Below, in pieces: positions 14,089-20,098 of a DNA stretch of 33,786 nucleotides (position 1 is its first letter; each line of letters starts with the position of its first letter). The stretch comes from Acutalibacteraceae bacterium. Its GTDB lineage: Bacteria; Bacillota; Clostridia; Oscillospirales; Acutalibacteraceae. The translations under genes were made by a program, and so were the position numbers. A model generated the notes under the pieces. It did no database searches. It had not been told where the DNA came from and saw only the letters and a program-made list of their open reading frames with translations. Location: NCBI GenBank assembly GCA_045596185.1, contig JAZOBW010000071.1, positions 1 to 33,786 of the forward strand, written 5' to 3'.

Positions 14089-15267
14089 TTATTCAATAAT
14101 ACGGCCCCGTTTTATACTGTCGTTTCCGAAACGGTCTCTTACCGACTGTATCGAGTCCTCTATCTGTTCCTGACGCATATCGTCCCTAGAAGAACCGAAA
14201 AGATCCTGCTGAACGGCAGGTTGTGCGGTCAGCCGTATCGCTCGTATTCCTACCGAACGAAGCGGCTGTTCAAACCGATAGTTTTCATCGAATATCTTCA
14301 TTCCCTTTTTGGCTATCGGTATTGCCGAATTCATCGCTTCGGGTATACTTTTTGAAAACTCTTTTACCTTAAGTGAAATATTACGCGTGTGTATCTGTAT
14401 TCCCATTGCATAAAGTCCCTTTTTGCGAAGTTGGCGTGATATGTCCTCCGAAAGTTCTAAAAATATCTTCCACACCTCTTCGCGGTCGGTTATATCGTGG
14501 TCGGGAGTCACGGAACGACCAACACTTTTCGGTAGGTAATCGTCACTCACGGGTGTTACCGGCGAACAATCAAGTCCCAATGCATAATCCCTTACCATCT
14601 GCCCCGATTTTCCCAATAACCGTGTAAGCATATCCGGATTGCACCTTGCCGCGTCGCCAATCGTAAATACGCCTAATTCCTTAAGCCGTTCGGCGGTACT
14701 GTTACCGACAAAGAGTAATTTCCTTATAGGATAATCCCATATCTTTTCCCTGAAATCTTCCTTTTTTATCGACATTATGCTGTTATAGCCTGCATTATCG
14801 GAGCCGAGTTTTGCAAATATTTTATTAAAACTCACCCCTATGGATACCGTGATACCAAGTTCGGTTTTTATATCGTTTTTTATTCTTTCGGCTATCGTTT
14901 CTCCCGAACCGAAAAGAATCGTGCTTCCCGTAACATCAAGCCAACACTCATCAATACCGAAAGGCTCAATAAGGTCGGTGTAGCGCTCATATATCCTGTG
15001 CGCCGACTGTGAATATTCAGAATACTTTTTATAATCGGGGGAAAGTGTTACAAGTGCAGGGCATTTGCGCTTTGCCTCCCACACAGCCTCTGCGGTTTTT
15101 ACACCCATAGACTTTGCTATCTCGTTCTTTGCAAGTACTATTCCGTGGCGATCCTCGGTGCTTCCGCATACCGCAACCGGAAGATCGTACAGCGTAGGGT
15201 TCGACAGTAATGAAACCGATGCAAAAAAATTATTAAGATCACAATGCAGTATGATCCTATCCTTCAT
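14089..15267 (-). CDS. Y-family (DinB/UmuC-like) translesion DNA polymerase
   Basis: The start is set at the ATG at 15267 (MKDRIILHCDLNNFFASV), preceded by a strong RBS (AGGAGG). Y-family motifs DLNNFFASV and GIDECWLDVTG are present. The listed 17-codon N-terminal extension is rejected. Confidence 0.9.
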   Translation of the reverse strand: MKDRIILHCDLNNFFASVSLLSNPTLYDLPVAVCGSTEDRHGIVLAKNEIAKSMGVKTAEAVWEAKRKCPALVTLSPDYKKYSEYSQSAHRIYERYTDLIEPFGIDECWLDVTGSTILFGSGETIAERIKNDIKTELGITVSIGVSFNKIFAKLGSDNAGYNSIMSIKKEDFREKIWDYPIRKLLFVGNSTAERLKELGVFTIGDAARCNPDMLTRLLGKSGQMVRDYALGLDCSPVTPVSDDYLPKSVGRSVTPDHDITDREEVWKIFLELSEDISRQLRKKGLYAMGIQIHTRNISLKVKEFSKSIPEAMNSAIPIAKKGMKIFDENYRFEQPLRSVGIRAIRLTAQPAVQQDLFGSSRDDMRQEQIEDSIQSVRDRFGNDSIKRGRIIE

Positions 15268-15318
15268 TACGCCGCCTCCTCTACGAATCGCGTTAAAATA
15301 ATTATACCACATAATCAA

Positions 15319-15639
15319 TCAGTTTTGAACACAAAATTTCTCCAGTGCCTTTATGTGCAACCTTTCTATCTGTCGTTTGCTGTAGTTGAATTGATAACTT
15401 ATCTCCTCAAGCGTTCTTCCGCATATATATTTCTGCGAAAGTATCTCGCTTAGAATATCGCCATCGGTGGCGTCGATACAGTCCTCGATAAGATTTCTAA
15501 ATCTGCGACACTCCCTTATGGACGCACGATATCTGTCTGCCCTTTCAGGACAACGTTTTCGCATCTCCTCAAGTCGCTGTATCTTGGATTGCTGTATCCT
15601 ATACTGCTTCAAAAAGCGCTTCTTTTCCTCAATCGTCAT
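15319..15639 (-). CDS. Small sigma-70 region-4-like HTH protein (phage/ICE-type, DUF1492/ArpU-like)
   Basis: 106 aa. An N-terminal coiled segment is followed by GRTLEEISYQFNYSKRQIERLHIKALEKF, a region-4-type HTH. Its start abuts the stop of the upstream zinc-ribbon gene (TGAATG). Confidence 0.6.
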   Translation of the reverse strand: MTIEEKKRFLKQYRIQQSKIQRLEEMRKRCPERADRYRASIRECRRFRNLIEDCIDATDGDILSEILSQKYICGRTLEEISYQFNYSKRQIERLHIKALEKFCVQN

Positions 15640-16026
15640 TCAGTGTCCTCCCTTTCCCGAAATGCTGGGTAATATCCTTGCGACATACTGTCCGTATGTA
15701 TAGCAGGTCTTGTTGCGGCGATTATAATCTTCGAGTTCCAATGTAATCATATTGATGGGATCAACTGCATTCCTGCGACGCCGCCGCTGCTCATATCGCC
15801 AAAGTTTCATTCCCGCATTTCTGCAGGAATCACTGCAAAAATCCCGTCGATCGGTCAGAATGATTCCGCAGTGATGACACCGCCTTATCTTATTTTCCTT
15901 TATTTTGCTGCTATTGCAAAAAGGACAGACCGCAACGCCTTCAAAAGGCGGTTCGTCAAAACCGTGTTCCTCAAAAAATAGATCAAATTTTTCAAATTTT
16001 CTACCACAGTCCGTACAAATGTACAT
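15640..16026 (-). CDS. Cys-rich double zinc-ribbon protein of unknown function
   Basis: The start is set at the ATG at 16026 (MYICTDCGRKF), after the RBS AAAGGAG. It has CxxC...CxxC, then CxxC...FCSDSC, then an Arg-rich tract (RRRRR). Confidence 0.6.
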   Translation of the reverse strand: MYICTDCGRKFEKFDLFFEEHGFDEPPFEGVAVCPFCNSSKIKENKIRRCHHCGIILTDRRDFCSDSCRNAGMKLWRYEQRRRRRNAVDPINMITLELEDYNRRNKTCYTYGQYVARILPSISGKGGH

Positions 16027-16052
16027 ACAATACACTCCTTTCAAATTTCCTC

Positions 16053-16081
16053 TTGACAATTACGAAAATTCGGTATATAAT
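16053..16081 (+). promoter_or_regulatory. Perfect-consensus SigA promoter (TTGACA-17-TATAAT) reading toward xre/immA/M/R
   Basis: ttgaca at 16053-16058 and tataat at 16076-16081. The spacer carries ttacgaaaattcggta, an imperfect copy of the TTACG-N6-CGTAA motif. Confidence 0.75.
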
Positions 16082-16180
16082 GCGAATTGCAAGGAAGATT
16101 TTTTCGAGTTCTCGTAATTACGATTACATTATATTACGCTTTTTCGTAAATGTCAAGTGCAATTTTACGAATTCGCGTAA
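16060..16180. repeat. Set of operator-like palindromes built on the half-site TTACG/CGTAA
   Basis: Four copies: ttacg-aaaatt-cggta (16060-16075), cgtaattacg (16113-16122), ttacg-cttttt-cgtaa (16134-16149) and ttacg-aattcg-cgtaa (16165-16180). Confidence 0.65.
16128..16156 (-). promoter_or_regulatory. Perfect-consensus SigA promoter (TTGACA-17-TATAAT on the minus strand) reading toward the zinc-ribbon/sigma4-like/polymerase operon
   Basis: The minus strand reads gcacTTGACAtttacgaaaaagcgtaaTATAATg. The 17-nt spacer is almost entirely the palindrome at 16134-16149. Confidence 0.75.
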
Positions 16181-16201
16181 AATTCGAAAGGAAGTATTTT
16201 T

Positions 16202-16534
16202 ATGCCGGATATCTACACTAGAATTGAGGAACTTTGCCGAAAGAAAGGAATCAATGTAACCCAACTTTGCACAGCCTGCAATATCCCCCGTGCATCGCTG
16301 TCGGATTACAAGACGGGAAGAAAAAAAACACTGTCCGCCGAAGTACTGTCAAAAATAGCAGACTTTTTCGGTGTCAGTGTCGATTTTCTGTACGGAAAGG
16401 AACCACGCTTTGCAGATGAACAATCCCTTAAAGTTGCACTTTTCGGTGGTAGTTCCGATGTTACTGATGAAATGTGGGACGAAGTTAAACGTTATGCGCA
16501 ATATATCAAGGAGAGGAATAATGGAAACCGCTAA
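16202..16534 (+). CDS. XRE-family HTH transcriptional repressor (ImmR/DdrO-like partner of the downstream metalloprotease)
   Basis: 110 aa. IEELCRKKGINVTQLCTACNIPRASLSDYKTGRKK is a classic Cro/C1-type HTH, followed by a C-terminal tail of about 45 aa. RBS AAAGGAAG. The 3' end overlaps the next gene by 14 nt. Confidence 0.85.
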   Translation: MPDIYTRIEELCRKKGINVTQLCTACNIPRASLSDYKTGRKKTLSAEVLSKIADFFGVSVDFLYGKEPRFADEQSLKVALFGGSSDVTDEMWDEVKRYAQYIKERNNGNR

Positions 16535-16916
16535 TCTTTACCGTATTGCCGAAAATAACGGTATAGCCGTAGACCGATTTCCCCTGCCCGAAAACCGCTC
16601 ATTAGCATTTATGGATGGTGACGCTATGTATGTAGCCATCGATAAAAACATACGCGGTGCAGAAGAACGGGTGTGCCTCGCACACGAGTTAGGCCACTGC
16701 CAAACCGCAAGTTTTTACAACATATATTCACCGCTCGATGTACGCCAAAAGCACGAAAGACGTGCCGATAAGTGGGCGATTAAGGCGCTAATCCCGAAAT
16801 CGGTCTATCGTAATGCTCTTAAACGGGGATACGACAACATCTATTCCCTTGCCGAATTTTTCGGCGTAACAGCCGATTTTATGAAAAAGGCTGTTGAATT
16901 TTATAGTAATTCGTAA
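16521..16916 (+). CDS. ImmA/IrrE-family (COG2856, M78) zinc metallopeptidase
   Basis: The start is set at the ATG at 16521 after the RBS AAGGAGAGG. HExxH is present in CLAHELGHCQT. Its size and its position just after an XRE gene are typical of ImmA/IrrE. Confidence 0.8.
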   Translation: METANLYRIAENNGIAVDRFPLPENRSLAFMDGDAMYVAIDKNIRGAEERVCLAHELGHCQTASFYNIYSPLDVRQKHERRADKWAIKALIPKSVYRNALKRGYDNIYSLAEFFGVTADFMKKAVEFYSNS

Positions 16917-16947
16917 AATATCTTTTGAAACAAAGGATGTGAATAAA

Positions 16948-17895
16948 ATGCCGCAAGAAAAGGCGCCACGCAACAAAACTATAGATACAACTGTATCTGA
17001 CGGCAAACACTATCTTGACCGTTGCATAAAAATAGAAACGGTTCAAAACGATCTTGACAAAATTCTCGACAAAACCATTCATGGAAATACATTTGAAGTT
17101 TCTTCGCTTTTACCACGTGAAAGCGTTGACTTGATAATCGCAGACCCACCATATAACCTTACAAAAAACTACAATGGAACTTTATTCAAAAAGAAAAATG
17201 CCTCCGAATACGAACTATATACAAGAAAATGGATAGAAAGTATATATCCGCTCCTGAAACCCAACGGTTCTATTTATGTTTGTTGTGATTGGGAGACCAG
17301 TTTAATAATCGGAAACATTCTTAATGAATATTTTACCGTGCGTAACCGCATAACCTGGCAACGCGAAAAAGGCAGGGGTGCGAAGGATAATTGGAAAAAT
17401 GGAATGGAGGATATATGGTACGCAACAAAATCAAATACATTCACATTTAATGTAGATCGGGTTAAAATCCGCAAAAAGGTAATTGCCCCATACAAAGTTG
17501 ATGGTGTGCCAAAAGACTGGGAAGAAACCGATAACGGAAATTTCAGGGATACATACCCTTCAAATTTCTGGGATGATATTACCATTCCCTTCTGGTCAAT
17601 GCCGGAAAACACTGCGCATCCCACCCAGAAATCAGAAAAATTGTATGCCAAAATCATTCTTGCAAGTTCAAATCCTAATGACATTGTATTTGACCCATTT
17701 CTTGGTTCAGGAACAACCAGTGTTGTTGCAAAAAAACTGGGTAGACATTACATTGGAATAGAAATAGAAGACCAATATTGTCTTTGGGCAGAACAGCGGT
17801 TGGAAATGGCGGAATCGCAACGCGATATACAAGGATTTACAAATAATGTTTTTTGGGAAAGAAATACATTGAACCAACAGTCTAAACAAAAATAA
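16948..17895 (+). CDS. Beta-class N6-adenine or N4-cytosine DNA methyltransferase (PF01555-type)
   Basis: Motif IV DLIIADPPYNL lies upstream of motif I FDPFLGSGTTSVVA (order IV then I, which defines the beta class). The start is set at the ATG at 16948. Confidence 0.9.
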   Translation: MPQEKAPRNKTIDTTVSDGKHYLDRCIKIETVQNDLDKILDKTIHGNTFEVSSLLPRESVDLIIADPPYNLTKNYNGTLFKKKNASEYELYTRKWIESIYPLLKPNGSIYVCCDWETSLIIGNILNEYFTVRNRITWQREKGRGAKDNWKNGMEDIWYATKSNTFTFNVDRVKIRKKVIAPYKVDGVPKDWEETDNGNFRDTYPSNFWDDITIPFWSMPENTAHPTQKSEKLYAKIILASSNPNDIVFDPFLGSGTTSVVAKKLGRHYIGIEIEDQYCLWAEQRLEMAESQRDIQGFTNNVFWERNTLNQQSKQK

Positions 17896-17913
17896 AAATA
17901 AGGATGTGTTATT

Positions 17914-18579
17914 ATGAATCCGATCTTAAGCGACGATACCATAAAAGAAGTAGAAAATAGTATAATAAACCGGCTAAACAAACTTCCAGATTTTCAAAAT
18001 CCTCGCATCAATAACAGTCCCCGTTCTATTGGAGATACCGTTCAAGATGTGATGGGAGAAATTTTACCATCGTGTTTTCCGGAAAAATTGTTAAAAAATT
18101 TCAGCGCTGATTTTGCAAGACGAGCGATGGCAGACCTTGCTTTTTCGGATGTAGATGACAACTACTATATAGTGGATATTAAAACACACAACACATCTAC
18201 CGATTTCAATATGCCCAATCTAACCTCCGTTGAACGACTGGCGCGATTTTACGAAGATGATAAAAACTATTTTATGGTTTTACTAGTCGAATATTCTGTT
18301 GTTAATGGAGTTTTGACATTTAATAATGCCAATTTTGTTCCCATAGAAAATTTGAAATGGGATTGTCTAACTATCGGAGCACTGGGTTGGGGACAGATTC
18401 AGATTGCAAATTCAAATATTGTTAATATTGACAGAAGTCTTAACCGAGTCGATTGGATGCTTTCGCTTTGTGACGCACTTGATATTTTCTACCCAAAAGA
18501 AATAGAAAAAATAACAGCAAGAATAAATCGATTTTGTTCCGTTCGTAAATTTTGGGAAAATAAAAAGAACAATTTATAA
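17914..18579 (+). CDS. Putative type II restriction endonuclease (PD-(D/E)XK-like), partner of the methyltransferase
   Basis: 221 aa, starting 19 nt after the MTase stop. The candidate catalytic core is D...YIVDIKT (D-x(n)-D-I-K, an EcoRV-like pattern). No other recognisable domain. The gene is A+T-rich. Confidence 0.5.
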   Translation: MNPILSDDTIKEVENSIINRLNKLPDFQNPRINNSPRSIGDTVQDVMGEILPSCFPEKLLKNFSADFARRAMADLAFSDVDDNYYIVDIKTHNTSTDFNMPNLTSVERLARFYEDDKNYFMVLLVEYSVVNGVLTFNNANFVPIENLKWDCLTIGALGWGQIQIANSNIVNIDRSLNRVDWMLSLCDALDIFYPKEIEKITARINRFCSVRKFWENKKNNL

Positions 18580-18582
18580 AAT

Positions 18583-18614
18583 AAAATCCTCCACTGTAGT
18601 GGAGGATTTTATTT
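18583..18614. terminator. Bidirectional terminator between the nuclease gene (+) and the SBP gene (-)
   Basis: aaaatcctccac (18583-18594), tgta loop, gtggaggatttt (18599-18610). It is flanked by A- and T-runs. Confidence 0.85.
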
Positions 18615-20098
18615 TACTCGTACTTTTCTATAAATGAAAAGTCGATATATCCGTTTTGGGGTTCGATAGAAATGTTTTTCAGGCCTTCATCAAATGCAAA
18701 ATTTGTACTTTCAAAAGCAAAGGGGGCAAGCGTATTATCCTTAAGCAATTCCTGCTGAACGGTAGCGGGATCGCCGCTATACTGACCGAAATTCTGAAGA
18801 TATTCCGATACAGATGTACTTTGCGCCTTTACGGGAAACACGGCAAACTGAAGGGTGCGTTCACCGAGTTCCGAGTTTAATGTTTCAAGTGAATCGGAAG
18901 GTTTAATATTTACAAACGCACTTACATTCTGCTGCCAATGACCCATAAGTGCCGTTACCGCAGGTTTTATAAATTCATTATCGTAGTAATAAAGGGTTGA
19001 TGCAGGAAACTTCTTATCCTCAAGCGATGACACCGCACCGGAGAAAACCGATTTTGCCGCAAACGCATCATAAGGCGTTACACCAACGCCGTTTGCTGAA
19101 CCGTTTATACCAACAATTATATCGGGGTAGAGAGAATCTGCCGCCGTAAAGCCGGCCGGCAATTGTTCGGAATAAATATCCGCAGAACGCAGCATCAAAA
19201 GCGACCTGCGTATATCCGCCGTGTATTCACGGCTTAGTGTAAGAACCCAGCAGATATTCTGTATACTTTCAATCTGCATACCGCCCTTACTTGCATCGGA
19301 TATTTCGTTACTGGGTAAAAAGGCGGCATCTACGCTGTTTTTTTCAAGCAACTGATAGGGCGTTTCCTCTTGATTGCAGGAAAGAAAGACCGCCGCATTT
19401 GATGCAACAAAATCGCCGTTATACTCCTCATTTTTATAAAGGCGTATACCGAAATCTTCTTTGTTCCACTTTGTTATTCTATATGAACCGTTAGACAAAA
19501 TATACTCGCTTTCAAGGCCGTATCTACCGGTAGCATCCTCGAAAAACTCTTCATTACAAGGCATACATATAGAGGTTGTAAGGGTTTCTTTGAAATTATC
19601 GTCCTCACGGCAAAGGGTTATTACCAGTGTCTTTTCATCGACCGCTGTTACTCCCAGTTCGGACGGATCCATTGAACTTTCATATATTTCCTTTGCATTT
19701 GATATTGCAAAAAGACGGCTTACAAAAGGTGCCTTGGTTTGCGGCGTTACCGCACGTCTTAAGCCGAATACAAAGTCGGCCGCGGTAAGCGGTGTGCCGT
19801 CACTCCAGCGGGCATCCTGCCTTATTGTAAATGTATAGGCAAGACCGCTAACCTGCACATCTTCGCAGACACCGTAAACAATTTCACCCGAAGCATCCCT
19901 TCGAAAAAGCCCTTCATAAATATTGCGCACAATAAGAAGTTCGGAATCAGTAGACGCCGTTTGTGCATCAAGAACTGCGGGTTTTTCGTTAACTTCAAAA
20001 TATATATATGCATCCTTGTGATTATCGCCGCATCCCACCGCCGAAGCAGCAAGAAACAAGCACATCACTACTGAAAGCAAACGGTATAAAAACTTCAT
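18614..20098 (-). CDS. ABC transporter substrate-binding lipoprotein, family 5 (peptide/nickel, OppA-like), with no adjacent permease or ATPase genes
   Basis: The start is set at the ATG at 20098 (MKFLYRLLSVVMCLFLAASAVGCG: signal peptide plus lipobox) after the RBS GGGAG. The family-5 SBP-like core includes ARWSDGTPLTAADFVF. Confidence 0.8.
   Translation of the reverse strand: MKFLYRLLSVVMCLFLAASAVGCGDNHKDAYIYFEVNEKPAVLDAQTASTDSELLIVRNIYEGLFRRDASGEIVYGVCEDVQVSGLAYTFTIRQDARWSDGTPLTAADFVFGLRRAVTPQTKAPFVSRLFAISNAKEIYESSMDPSELGVTAVDEKTLVITLCREDDNFKETLTTSICMPCNEEFFEDATGRYGLESEYILSNGSYRITKWNKEDFGIRLYKNEEYNGDFVASNAAVFLSCNQEETPYQLLEKNSVDAAFLPSNEISDASKGGMQIESIQNICWVLTLSREYTADIRRSLLMLRSADIYSEQLPAGFTAADSLYPDIIVGINGSANGVGVTPYDAFAAKSVFSGAVSSLEDKKFPASTLYYYDNEFIKPAVTALMGHWQQNVSAFVNIKPSDSLETLNSELGERTLQFAVFPVKAQSTSVSEYLQNFGQYSGDPATVQQELLKDNTLAPFAFESTNFAFDEGLKNISIEPQNGYIDFSFIEKYE

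What the first reader, a model, noticed from the sequence alone, without database searches (positions are those of the whole stretch)
16202..18579. Restriction-modification pair placed downstream of an XRE repressor and ImmA/IrrE protease instead of a classical C-protein
Many type II R-M systems use a small HTH controller (C) protein. Here the HTH gene is translationally coupled to a COG2856 metalloprotease through a 14-nt overlap. The MTase follows 31 nt later and the nuclease 18 nt after that, with a single strong terminator only after the nuclease. If this is one transcript, R-M expression would be gated by a protease-cleavable repressor. That would make it inducible by DNA damage or a phage-derived trigger, rather than following C-protein timing logic. 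Alternatively, the XRE/ImmA pair is a leftover mobile-element immunity module that the R-M pair inserted behind. The nuclease assignment rests only on position, size and a D...D-I-K motif.
Basis: inference. Interest (0 to 1): 0.65.

Follow-up and report, generated by a model that had tools for sequence, protein, structure and literature searches.

The report
Restriction cassette riding a repressor-protease operon
A foreign DNA-cutting and DNA-marking gene pair, with no promoter of its own, sits at the tail of a conserved repressor-protease operon whose usual partner is an error-prone DNA polymerase operon, so it probably borrows that operon's switch; this looks like a one-off insertion, not a designed control system.

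Summary
In detail: xre (16202-16534), immA (16521-16916, 14-nt overlap), a beta-class m6A methyltransferase (16948-17895) and a 221-aa ORF (17914-18579) lie head to tail, with one strong hairpin terminator after the last.

- **Nuclease:** the 221-aa protein is a PD-(D/E)XK restriction endonuclease. Its AlphaFold model (pLDDT 90.6) matches R.SwaI, R.HincII and EcoRV, and D74 and D88-I-K90 are invariant. The predicted site is TTTAAA.
- **Insertion:** the closest relative (L010) is syntenic but lacks M-R; there immA's stop codon is followed directly by the same terminator. M-R is therefore a 1,663-bp, low-GC, promoterless insert between immA's stop and its terminator, so co-transcription from P_xre is very likely.
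- **Not an R-M controller:** xre-immA belongs to a conserved chromosomal module found in 15 species-level loci. It faces a Zn-ribbon / sigma-like / DinB polymerase operon across two face-to-face consensus promoters and four TTACG-N6-CGTAA operators.
- **One-off pairing:** none of those 14 relatives carries M-R. None of about 90 M-R loci carries an xre or immA like the window's.

The parts
14089..15318 (-). Y-family DNA polymerase (DinB/Pol IV-like). The likely true start is ATG 15267 (392 aa). It is the distal gene of the divergent operon.
   Evidence: Pfam IMS, IMS_C and IMS_HHH; NCBIfam DNA polymerase IV. Orthologues of 392-398 aa occupy the same position in L005, L008 and L010.
15319..15639 (-). 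106-aa sigma-70 region-4-like small regulator, the middle gene of the divergent operon.
   Evidence: Pfam Sigma70_r4 at E 1e-4, below the cut-off; PHROG 36 transcriptional regulator, E 2.6e-11. Conserved in all 14 related loci.
15640..16059 (-). Zn-ribbon protein with two CxxC pairs, the first gene of the divergent operon. The likely true start is ATG 16026, with an AAAGGAG ribosome-binding site 8 nt upstream.
   Evidence: ORF; weak Zn_Ribbon_TF hit. Orthologues in all 14 related loci. The start was read from the sequence.
16053..16081 (+). P_xre: TTGACA-17-TATAAT (12 of 12 consensus positions). Operator O1 fills the spacer.
   Evidence: The promoter is conserved in position in 15 loci.
16128..16156 (-). 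P_div, the promoter of the Zn-ribbon / sigma-like / dinB operon: TTGACA-17-TATAAT (12 of 12). It lies face to face with P_xre, and operator O3 fills its spacer.
   Evidence: Conserved in 15 loci.
16060..16180 (.). Four 16-bp palindromic operators, TTACG-N6-CGTAA, at 16060, 16102, 16134 and 16165. They are the presumed XRE binding sites.
   Evidence: Spacings of 41-42/32/31 bp recur in the loci that show all four sites. The only matches with one mismatch or fewer in the whole window are here. Some species carry the symmetric variant TTACT-N6-AGTAA.
16202..16534 (+). xre: 110-aa HTH repressor with a conserved C-terminal tail (LKVALFGG...VTDEMW.EVKRYA).
   Evidence: Pfam HTH_26/HTH_3; PADLOC capH, E 7.5e-10, full length; alignment of 15 orthologues.
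16521..16916 (+). immA: 131-aa single-domain M78 (COG2856) Zn-metallopeptidase with HELGH at residues 55-59.
   Evidence: Pfam Peptidase_M78. H55, E56 and H59 are invariant in 26 homologues. The model's best PDB match is the PprI/IrrE N-terminal domain. The PADLOC capP match covers profile positions 24-142 of 242 only.
16917..18579 (+). Inserted promoterless M-R cassette, 1,663 bp, GC 0.361 against 0.44 in the flanks. TAAAAT is repeated at both junctions (16914 and 18577).
   Evidence: Empty site in L010; junction alignments; GC content.
16918..16940 (+). 10-bp hairpin (-7.7 kcal/mol) that sequesters the MTase Shine-Dalgarno sequence and starts 2 nt after the immA stop. It may couple MTase translation to immA translation (inference).
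   Evidence: It is not conserved in other cassettes.
16948..17895 (+). Beta-class N6-adenine DNA methyltransferase, 315 aa.
   Evidence: Pfam N6_N4_Mtase, E 7e-48; PADLOC MTase_II, E 7e-71. Best PDB match is M.BceJIV (8URK), E 6e-36. DPPY and FLGSGTT were read from the sequence.
17914..18579 (+). Type IIP PD-(D/E)XK restriction endonuclease of the SwaI/HincII/EcoRV blunt-cutter branch, 221 aa. Predicted site TTTAAA.
   Evidence: AF2 model pLDDT 90.6. Foldseek: SwaI E 1e-6 and TM 0.61, then HincII and EcoRV. D88-I-K90 aligns with the DVK motif at HincII chain residues 124-126. Invariant residues; TTTAAA depletion.
18577..18616 (.). Bidirectional intrinsic terminator. It is the ancestral terminator of xre-immA and of the convergent SBP gene.
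   Evidence: It is homologous to the hairpin directly after immA in L010.

Best explanation
A two-gene type IIP restriction-modification cassette has been inserted, without a promoter or terminator of its own, exactly between the stop codon of immA and immA's intrinsic terminator. The cassette encodes a beta-class m6A methyltransferase and a SwaI/HincII-like PD-(D/E)XK blunt cutter. Its predicted site is TTTAAA, which would make it a DraI-type enzyme.

The host operon, xre-immA, is half of a conserved chromosomal module of gut and rumen Oscillospirales. In that module an XRE repressor presumably binds four TTACG-N6-CGTAA operators spread over two face-to-face consensus promoters. That would shut off both its own operon and a divergent Zn-ribbon / sigma-like / DinB (translesion polymerase) operon. 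By analogy with ImmR/ImmA, DdrO/IrrE and CapH/CapP, the single-domain ImmA metalloprotease would cleave XRE on a stress signal, probably DNA damage.

Because of where the cassette landed, M and R are most likely made from the xre-immA read-through transcript. Their expression would then be low and self-limited in normal growth, and would rise together with the polymerase operon when XRE is cleaved.

Shown here: the anatomy, the insertion, the nuclease fold, the conserved module and the operators. Inferred: co-transcription, XRE binding, ImmA cleavage, the trigger and the TTTAAA specificity.

The coupling is most likely an accident of promoter capture. This cassette family often sits a few bases behind unrelated host genes, which fits that reading better than an evolved substitute for a C protein.
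For: Insertion:
- L010 has ImmA 76%, XRE 86%, PyrH 93% and YlxM 86% identical to the window. It has the same gene order, pyrH-dinB-sig-Zn | xre-immA | SBP-ylxM, but no M-R.
- In L010 the immA stop is followed immediately by a hairpin homologous to the one after R in the window. Homology resumes at R's stop codon.
- The insert has GC 0.361 against 0.44 in the flanks.

No own promoter:
- Only 31 nt precede M.
- The scan finds no + strand site with 9 or more of 12 consensus positions between P_xre (16053-16081, 12/12) and 17066.
- The related cassette in L001 does have its own TTGAAA-17-TATAAT about 80 nt upstream of M.

R-M identity:
- M has N6_N4_Mtase and DPPY.
- The R model has pLDDT 90.6, and its best PDB matches are R.SwaI, HincII and EcoRV.
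- D74, D88 and K90 are invariant, and D88-I-K90 aligns with the DVK motif of HincII.
- M-R linkage holds in 76 of 80 loci.

Host module:
- 14 distinct related loci have Zn-ribbon and sigma-like genes divergent from xre-immA. DinB is present in 12 of the 13 loci with enough sequence.
- Promoters and four operators are conserved, with 41-42/32/31-bp spacing wherever all four sites are detected.
- Operator matches occur nowhere else in the window.
- HEXXH is invariant.
- PADLOC gives capH and capP similarity, and the ImmA model matches the PprI/IrrE peptidase domain.

Hitch-hiking habit: about a quarter of cassette loci have an unrelated co-directional gene (RecF-like, AlkZ-like, KduI, another MTase) ending 60 nt or less upstream of M.

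TTTAAA:
- The window has 2 sites against 15.7-34 expected, ranking first or second of about 2000 hexamers, although TTTAA occurs 49 times and TTAAA 53 times.
- L001 has 0 against 9.9 expected.
- Cassette loci total 65 against 177 expected; control loci total 271 against 349.
Against: - No transcript data exist. No public run holding this sequence could be listed, so co-transcription is structural inference.
- A weak junction promoter cannot be excluded. TAAAAT at 16914-16919 could act as a -10, but the only -35-like hexamer, TTGAAT, is 14 nt away.
- The SD-sequestering hairpin at 16918-16940 could damp MTase translation.
- The arrangement is seen only in this genome, so there is no evidence that selection favours it.
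- ImmA lacks the GAF/ssDNA-sensing domain of CapP and IrrE, so the trigger is unknown.
- TTTAAA is also absent from L008 and L010, which have no cassette in the stretches held. The depletion could therefore come from another system in this lineage.
- The MTase's best structural relative, M.BceJIV, recognises GTWWAC, and HincII recognises GTYRAC.
Confidence: 0.7

Rival explanations
1. M and R are driven mainly by an independent, non-consensus promoter, either at the insertion junction or inside the 3' end of immA. In that case XRE/ImmA would have little influence on restriction.
For: A -10-like TAAAAT is created at the junction (16914-16919), with TTGAAT upstream. Low-GC Firmicutes tolerate weak -35 elements. 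A weak hairpin inside immA (16861-16876) could reduce read-through.
Against: The TTGAAT-TAAAAT spacing is 14 nt and there is no TG extension. The scan reports no + strand promoter-like site between 16082 and 17066. The 16861 hairpin lies in translated sequence and has only 5 bp. There is no terminator between immA and M.
Confidence: 0.2
2. XRE/ImmA would be an evolved, dedicated controller of this R-M system that replaces a C protein and makes restriction inducible by design.
For: The genes are co-directional and tightly spaced, with one terminator. Defence operons controlled by XRE plus IrrE-like protease pairs do exist (CapH/CapP).
Against: The pair is conserved with the DinB operon and never with M-R in 14 related loci. 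About 90 cassette loci have no xre or immA like the window's. The operators lie only in the xre/dinB intergenic region. The empty site in L010 shows a simple late insertion.
Confidence: 0.05
3. XRE/ImmA would be a decaying remnant of a prophage or ICE immunity module, behind which the R-M pair happened to land.
For: XRE and ImmA match phage families: PHROG 8 and PHROG 87 metallo-protease. More distant ImmA homologues (51% identity or less) lack the DinB operon and may be element-borne.
Against: The flanks are core genes (dxr, cdsA, uppS, frr, pyrH / SBP, ylxM, ffh). No recombinase or phage genes are adjacent. The five-gene module, its promoters, four operators, the 14-nt (some species 23-nt) gene overlap and the HEXXH motif are conserved across family-level divergence.
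Confidence: 0.05
4. The cassette is transcribed but functionally dead or reduced to methylation only. On this reading the 221-aa protein is not an active endonuclease in this host.
For: There is no biochemical evidence. No Pfam, NCBIfam, PHROG or PADLOC model recognises the protein.
Against: The ORF is full length. All 66 family-invariant residues are present by definition of the alignment, including D74, D88 and K90. The fold is predicted with high confidence. The strong TTTAAA depletion suggests ongoing or recent restriction pressure.
Confidence: 0.1

Closest known systems
ImmR/ImmA of Bacillus subtilis ICEBs1 (XRE repressor plus COG2856/M78 anti-repressor protease)
   Same: The gene order is repressor then small single-domain protease, co-transcribed and divergent from the regulated operon. 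The repressor is presumably autoregulatory, with operators over both promoters.
   Different: The module here is chromosomal and not inside an ICE or prophage. The regulated operon encodes a Zn-ribbon protein, a sigma-like protein and a Y-family polymerase in place of excision and transfer genes. The promoters are face to face, not back to back. ImmA here is 131 aa, against 169 aa for ICEBs1 ImmA (that figure is from my own knowledge).
CapH/CapP regulators of CBASS, DISARM and other defence operons (Lau et al., bioRxiv 10.1101/2022.04.27.489752; PMC13228613)
   Same: An HTH repressor plus a Zn-metallopeptidase that cleaves it, giving DNA-damage-inducible expression of a defence system. XRE matches the PADLOC capH model over its full length.
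   Different: CapP has a C-terminal GAF domain and a cysteine-switch loop that sense ssDNA. ImmA here covers only the peptidase part of the profile (positions 24-142 of 242). The capH and capP genes lie upstream of and opposite to the defence operon. Here R-M is appended downstream on the same transcript, and the opposite operon is a polymerase.
DdrO/IrrE (PprI) radiation-desiccation response of Deinococcus
   Same: A chromosomal, LexA-independent switch in which an XRE repressor is cleaved by an M78 protease, and which controls DNA-repair genes. The ImmA model's best PDB matches are PprI and IrrE.
   Different: IrrE has three domains (peptidase, HTH, GAF), and its gene is not in an operon with ddrO (the latter from my own knowledge). 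Its regulon is large and its operator motif is different.
C-protein-controlled type II R-M systems (for example PvuII, Csp231I; reviewed in PMC3874152)
   Same: A small HTH protein encoded upstream of R-M genes on the same strand.
   Different: C proteins are dedicated activator-repressors that bind C-boxes just upstream of C-R and travel with the cassette. Here the HTH protein belongs to the host module and binds sites about 800 bp upstream of M. It is paired with a protease and is absent from all other members of the cassette family.
R.SwaI (ATTT^AAAT) and R.HincII (GTY^RAC), EcoRV-branch blunt-cutting PD-(D/E)XK enzymes (PMC5415892)
   Same: The fold matches: Foldseek E 1e-6, TM 0.61 to SwaI, probability 1.0 to HincII. 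The catalytic D...D-x-K is in place, and a KT-N...PN-(I/L)-S stretch is shared with HincII.
   Different: Sequence identity is only 11-22%, and no sequence-family model recognises the protein. The specificity is untested. TTTAAA is predicted only from site depletion.
R-M gene complexes as autonomous mobile units that insert without mobility genes (Furuta et al. 2010, PMC2853133)
   Same: A bare M-R unit is inserted relative to a related genome, flanked by a short direct repeat (TAAAAT), with no transposase or integrase.
   Different: Here the unit lacks a promoter and terminator and uses those of the host operon. The repeat is only 6-7 bp in AT-rich sequence and could be chance.

Membership tests
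Type II (IIP) restriction-modification system | DNA methyltransferase with a catalytic (D/S)PPY motif and an AdoMet-binding FxGxG motif | tested here: met
   Pfam N6_N4_Mtase, E 7e-48; PADLOC MTase_II, E 7e-71. DPPY comes before FLGSGTT in the sequence.
Type II (IIP) restriction-modification system | Adjacent separate endonuclease with a nuclease fold and catalytic residues | tested here: met
   AF2 pLDDT 90.6. Foldseek matches SwaI, HincII and EcoRV. D74, D88 and K90 are invariant, and D88-I-K90 aligns with the DVK motif of HincII.
Type II (IIP) restriction-modification system | M and R genes inherited together as a unit | tested here: met
   76 of 80 metagenomic loci have M directly upstream of R. 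The same holds in L001-L004 and L128-L134.
Type II (IIP) restriction-modification system | Site-specific cleavage that is blocked by the cognate methylation | not testable with these tools
   There is only indirect evidence: TTTAAA depletion.
C-protein-controlled R-M system | A small HTH controller gene that travels with the R-M cassette | tested here: not met
   tblastn finds no xre or immA like the window's in any other cassette locus. No HTH gene was called next to M in the loci with gene calls, and the ten upstream neighbours scanned are unrelated genes or have no Pfam match. XRE orthologues occur without M-R.
C-protein-controlled R-M system | Operators (C-boxes) immediately upstream of the C/R unit | tested here: not met
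   The palindromes lie only at 16060-16180, between xre and the divergent operon.
ImmR/ImmA-type repressor / anti-repressor-protease module (XRE + COG2856) | An HTH_3-type repressor gene directly followed by an M78 peptidase gene in one operon | tested here: met
   Pfam hits. The genes overlap by 14 nt here and by 14 or 23 nt in all 15 loci.
ImmR/ImmA-type repressor / anti-repressor-protease module (XRE + COG2856) | Intact HEXXH zinc site | tested here: met
   H55, E56 and H59 are invariant in 26 homologues.
ImmR/ImmA-type repressor / anti-repressor-protease module (XRE + COG2856) | A divergent target operon with repressor sites over the promoters | tested here: met
   Operators O1 and O3 fill the 17-nt spacers of P_xre and P_div, conserved in 15 loci. 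Binding itself was not tested.
ImmR/ImmA-type repressor / anti-repressor-protease module (XRE + COG2856) | Site-specific cleavage of the repressor by the protease on a signal | not testable with these tools
   The conserved XRE tail LKVALFGG...VTDEMW is a candidate cleavage region only.
CapH/CapP defence regulators | CapP architecture: peptidase plus C-terminal GAF domain with a cysteine switch | tested here: not met
   ImmA is 131 aa. It matches capP profile positions 24-142 of 242, and it covers only about 30% of PprI/IrrE (TMt 0.29-0.31).
CapH/CapP defence regulators | Regulator genes upstream of, and on the opposite strand to, the defence operon | tested here: not met
   R-M is downstream on the same strand. 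The opposite operon encodes a polymerase.
LexA/SOS-controlled translesion polymerase | A Firmicute LexA box (CGAAC-N4-GTTCG) at the promoter | tested here: not met
   There is no match with 2 mismatches or fewer in 16027-16201, and matches in the window are fewer than in shuffles.

The most novel reading that the evidence does not exclude
Restriction in this bacterium is truly stress-inducible. DNA damage, or a phage-derived signal, would activate the minimal ImmA protease, which would cleave XRE. M-R would then be induced together with a translesion polymerase from the same operator set.

Cleavage of incoming unmethylated DNA could itself generate the activating signal, which would give a positive feedback loop. 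Behind this would sit an undescribed LexA-independent XRE/ImmA regulon for error-prone repair that is widespread in gut Oscillospirales.
Probability: 0.25. Interest if true: 0.7.

Novelty: new variant of a known kind. Interest (0 to 1): 0.45.

Why it matters
- It is a clean natural example, with the empty site in hand, of a promoterless R-M cassette capturing the transcription signals of a host operon. The cassette family appears to do this habitually.
- The captured operon is a protease-cleavable-repressor switch. That makes the strain a ready-made test of whether a type II R-M system tolerates or benefits from stress-inducible expression, a question so far addressed for CBASS and BREX-type systems but not for classical R-M.
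- The work uncovers a conserved, apparently undescribed XRE/ImmA-controlled Zn-ribbon / sigma-like / DinB module in gut Clostridia, with an unusually regular four-operator, face-to-face promoter design.
- It also uncovers a large restriction-endonuclease family (more than 4,000 sequence clusters) that current domain libraries do not recognise.

Tried and rejected
- **Exact look-ups.** The window's XRE and ImmA are not on record elsewhere, and one cassette look-up failed for technical reasons.
- **Sequencing runs.** Searches for runs holding the locus or its flank listed none, so co-transcription could not be tested on reads.
- **Sequence libraries.** Pfam, NCBIfam, PHROGs, PADLOC and PDB sequences gave nothing for the 221-aa protein. 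Only the fold search and a profile search identified it.
- **Plasmids and phages.** tblastn of R found no match, so there is no evidence for a plasmid or phage vector.
- **GTTAAC/GTYRAC/GTWWAC specificity.** The M.BceJIV and HincII similarities suggested it. It is rejected for this clade: GTTAAC is 5 observed against 5.8 expected in the window and 4 against 2.1 in L001. GTTAAC is somewhat depleted in the more distant cassette loci.
- **LexA control of dinB.** No LexA box was found.
- **SD-hiding hairpin as a family feature.** It is not conserved in other cassettes.
- **Internal + strand promoters.** None reached 9 of 12 consensus positions between P_xre and 17066.
- **Literature.** Searches for R-M behind XRE/ImmA, and for an XRE/ImmA plus Y-family polymerase cassette outside Deinococcus, found nothing relevant.


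Full report
**1. The observation**

- xre is 16202-16534 and encodes a 110-aa HTH_26/HTH_3 protein.
- immA starts at ATG 16521, 14 nt before the xre stop, and ends at 16916. It encodes a 131-aa Peptidase_M78 protein (37.3 bits, cut-off 22).
- The MTase starts 31 nt later, at ATG 16948, and runs to 17895. It encodes 315 aa with N6_N4_Mtase (E 7e-48). DPPY lies ahead of FLGSGTT, so it is a beta-class N6-adenine enzyme.
- The last ORF starts 18 nt later and runs from 17914 to 18579 (221 aa).
- A -23.5 kcal/mol hairpin with a U-tract follows at 18577-18616.

Nothing between xre and that hairpin looks like a terminator. The 5-bp hairpin at 16861-16876 lies in translated immA sequence. The 10-bp hairpin at 16918-16940 has no U-tract, but it covers the MTase Shine-Dalgarno sequence.

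**2. The 221-aa protein is a restriction endonuclease**

No sequence library recognises it. It belongs to a family of at least 4,369 clusters at 90% identity, none of which carries a Pfam domain or a name.

An AlphaFold2 model built on 43 homologues is confident (pLDDT 90.6, pTM 0.84). Its best PDB matches are all type IIP blunt cutters:
- R.SwaI: E 1e-6, TM 0.61 over the whole chain.
- About forty HincII chains, probability 1.0.
- EcoRV.

SwaI and HincII are described as structural homologues that encircle DNA and cut blunt (PMC5415892).

D74, D88 and K90 are invariant in the family. They sit at the start of strand 2 and within strand 3 of the core sheet. A profile search aligns D88-I-K90 with the DVK motif of HincII, at chain residues 124-126 in that alignment. 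From my own knowledge this is the catalytic D127/K129 pair. The same alignment places P-N102 on HincII's PN-I-I-S.

In 76 of 80 metagenomic loci the MTase homologue lies immediately upstream on the same strand. The pair is therefore a true R-M cassette.

**3. Likely specificity**

The MTase's nearest solved relative is M.BceJIV (8URK, E 6e-36). It methylates GTWWAC, and HincII cuts GTYRAC. Yet GTTAAC is not depleted in the window (5 observed, 5.8 expected) or in L001.

TTTAAA is depleted:
- The window has 2 sites in 33.8 kb against 15.7-34 expected under Markov orders 1-4. That ranks first or second of about 2000 hexamers.
- TTTAA occurs 49 times, TTAAA 53 times, and every one-mismatch neighbour 5-41 times.
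- The cassette-bearing locus L001 has 0 against 9.9 expected.
- All cassette loci together have 65 against 177 expected. Control loci have 271 against 349.
- The related species L005 has nine TTTAAA sites in the region syntenic with the window, where the window has none.

SwaI's site, ATTTAAAT, contains TTTAAA, and both enzymes would cut blunt at the centre. I therefore predict a DraI-type specificity with about 0.5 confidence. The caveat is that L008 and L010 have no cassette in the stretches held and also lack TTTAAA.

**4. What xre-immA belongs to**

Homologues of ImmA are numerous (1,034 clusters).

I examined 14 distinct loci whose XRE is at least 57% identical to the window's. These are L005, L008, L010, L012-L020, L027 and L030: Acutalibacteraceae and other Clostridia MAGs from gut and rumen. 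In each, xre-immA faces a divergent operon. That operon encodes:
- a Zn-ribbon protein;
- a 106-aa sigma-70 region-4-like protein (PHROG 36);
- a Y-family polymerase. It is present in 12 of 13 loci with enough sequence, is separated by about 2 kb in L027, and was not detected in L013.

In the window these genes are at 15640-16026, 15319-15639 and 14089-15267 on the minus strand. The flanks are housekeeping genes: dxr, cdsA, uppS, frr and pyrH on one side, and an SBP gene, ylxM and ffh on the other.

More distant ImmA homologues (51% identity or less) have unrelated XRE partners and no polymerase. They may be element-borne.

**5. The regulatory region**

The 175-bp intergenic region has the only two 12/12 sigma-70 matches in the stretch scanned (15600-18800):
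- P_xre at 16053-16081 on the + strand.
- P_div at 16156-16128 on the - strand.

They point towards each other, so the two 5' UTRs overlap.

Four 16-bp palindromes, TTACG-N6-CGTAA, lie at 16060, 16102, 16134 and 16165. O1 and O3 exactly fill the 17-nt spacers of the two promoters.

Promoters and palindromes are conserved across the 15 loci. Spacings of 41-42/32/31 bp recur wherever all four sites are detected. In several species both half-sites change together, to TTACT-N6-AGTAA.

In the whole window the pattern, allowing one mismatch, occurs only here. There is no LexA box.

This is the signature of a dimeric HTH repressor that shuts both promoters. XRE is the obvious candidate, though that is an inference.

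XRE has a conserved C-terminal tail, LKVALFGG...VTDEMW.EVKRYA. ImmA keeps H55-E56-x-x-H59. Its model (pLDDT 70) best matches the peptidase domain of PprI/IrrE.

PADLOC's capH model matches XRE end to end. Its capP model matches ImmA only over the peptidase half, positions 24-142 of 242.

The module therefore works like ImmR/ImmA, DdrO/IrrE or CapH/CapP. It lacks the GAF/ssDNA-sensor domain, so the trigger is unknown.

**6. How M-R got there**

L010 is the closest relative, with ImmA 76%, XRE 86%, PyrH 93% and YlxM 86% identical to the window. It has the same gene order but no M-R. There the immA stop codon is followed at once by the hairpin AAAAAAATCCCTCACCGTACGGTGAGGGATTT and then by the convergent SBP gene.

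In the window the homologous hairpin and SBP 3' end follow the R gene. Alignment with L010 resumes at R's stop codon.

The insert is thus 16917-18579 (1,663 bp). Its GC is 0.361 against 0.44 for the flanking operons, and TAAAAT occurs at both junctions. It brings only 31 nt upstream of M and no terminator.

Twelve of 14 related loci end the operon at immA with a terminator. Two others carry different co-directional cargo: a mannose-6-phosphate isomerase in L008 and a membrane protein in L018.

Elsewhere the cassette has its own promoter, for example TTGAAA-17-TATAAT about 80 nt upstream of M in L001, near a tRNA gene. In other loci there are intergenic gaps of 230-390 nt. In about a quarter of loci it sits 60 nt or less behind an unrelated co-directional gene: RecF-like, AlkZ-like, KduI or another MTase.

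None of these loci has an xre or immA like the window's, and none of the neighbours looked at is an HTH regulator. R has no match in plasmid or phage collections.

Bare R-M units that insert without mobility genes are known (PMC2853133).

**7. Mechanism proposed**

Shown here: a promoterless R-M cassette lies inside the transcription unit of xre-immA.

Inferred:
- M and R are translated from the P_xre read-through transcript.
- XRE autorepression keeps that transcript at a low steady level, enough for methylation and basal restriction.
- When ImmA cleaves XRE, M-R rises together with the Zn-ribbon / sigma-like / DinB operon.
- The hairpin over M's Shine-Dalgarno sequence begins 2 nt after the immA stop. 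It might make M translation depend on ribosomes finishing immA. This is speculative, and the hairpin is not conserved in other cassettes.

The arrangement is unique among 14 related host loci and about 90 cassette loci, and the cassette commonly hitch-hikes on unrelated genes. I therefore read the coupling as accidental promoter capture, not an evolved alternative to C-protein control.

**8. Comparison with what is known, and novelty**

Each component is of a known kind:
- a type IIP R-M pair;
- an ImmR/ImmA-like switch;
- R-M mobility without mobility genes;
- defence systems under protease-cleavable repressors (CapH/CapP).

What is new:
- The combination: a classical R-M system embedded as the distal genes of such a switch.
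- The host module itself: I found no description of an XRE/ImmA-controlled Y-family polymerase cassette outside Deinococcus.
- The endonuclease family, which current domain libraries miss.

I found no paper on R-M behind XRE/ImmA.

**9. Verdict**

| Item | Assessment |
|---|---|
| Observation | Confirmed |
| Novelty | New variant of a known kind |
| Interest | 0.45 |

The decisive missing evidence is a transcript map and an induction experiment. No public reads for this organism could be found.

Noticed in passing
window 14089-16534 (and L005, L008, L010, L012-L020, L027, L030): A conserved five-gene module, dinB <- sigma-r4-like <- Zn-ribbon | xre -> immA, occurs in gut and rumen Oscillospirales. 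It has face-to-face consensus promoters and four evenly phased TTACG-N6-CGTAA palindromes. It looks like a LexA-independent switch for a translesion polymerase. I found no description of it in the searchable literature.
   Followed up: yes
whole window; TTTAAA at 2663 and 3202 only: TTTAAA is extremely depleted: 2 sites against 16-34 expected, although TTTAA occurs 49 times and TTAAA 53 times. L008 (0 against 16.5 expected) and L010 (0 against 5.7) are also depleted, although no cassette lies in the stretches held. That part is unexplained.
   Followed up: partly
window 16918-16940: A 10-bp hairpin (-7.7 kcal/mol) starts 2 nt after the immA stop and pairs with the MTase Shine-Dalgarno sequence. 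It may couple MTase translation to immA translation or damp it. Other cassettes do not have it.
   Followed up: partly
L049, L053/L054, L076, L102, L127 and others: The M-R cassette family often lies 25 nt or less behind unrelated co-directional host genes (RecF-like ATPase, AlkZ-like glycosylase, KduI, another MTase). This suggests a general habit of inserting at the 3' ends of host operons without a promoter.
   Followed up: partly
L001 4478-4570 and 4930-4960: In the 69%-identical cassette of L001, a tRNA gene read by eye (Ser or Leu type, not run through ARAGORN) and its terminator lie about 480 nt upstream of M. A TTGAAA-17-TATAAT promoter lies about 80 nt upstream of M. This is a different mode of residence for the same cassette.
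   Followed up: no
L008 7422-8387; L018 6396-7259: Two other lineages have unrelated co-directional genes appended right after immA: a type I phosphomannose isomerase and a Zn-ribbon membrane protein. The tail of this operon therefore seems to be a recurrent landing site for cargo.
   Followed up: partly
window 16914-16920 and 18577-18583: TAAAAT(A) occurs at both insert junctions. R's stop codon occupies the position of immA's ancestral stop context. This could be a short target duplication, microhomology or chance in AT-rich DNA.
   Followed up: partly
window 16861-16876: A short GC-rich hairpin followed by TTTTAT lies inside the immA coding sequence and is also present in L010. It is probably a by-product of the conserved FFGVTADFMKKA peptide and not an attenuator.
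   Followed up: no
L013 and L027: In L013 no DinB match lies beside the sigma-like and Zn-ribbon genes. In L027 DinB is about 2 kb further away. The polymerase end of the module is therefore less fixed than the regulator end.
   Followed up: no
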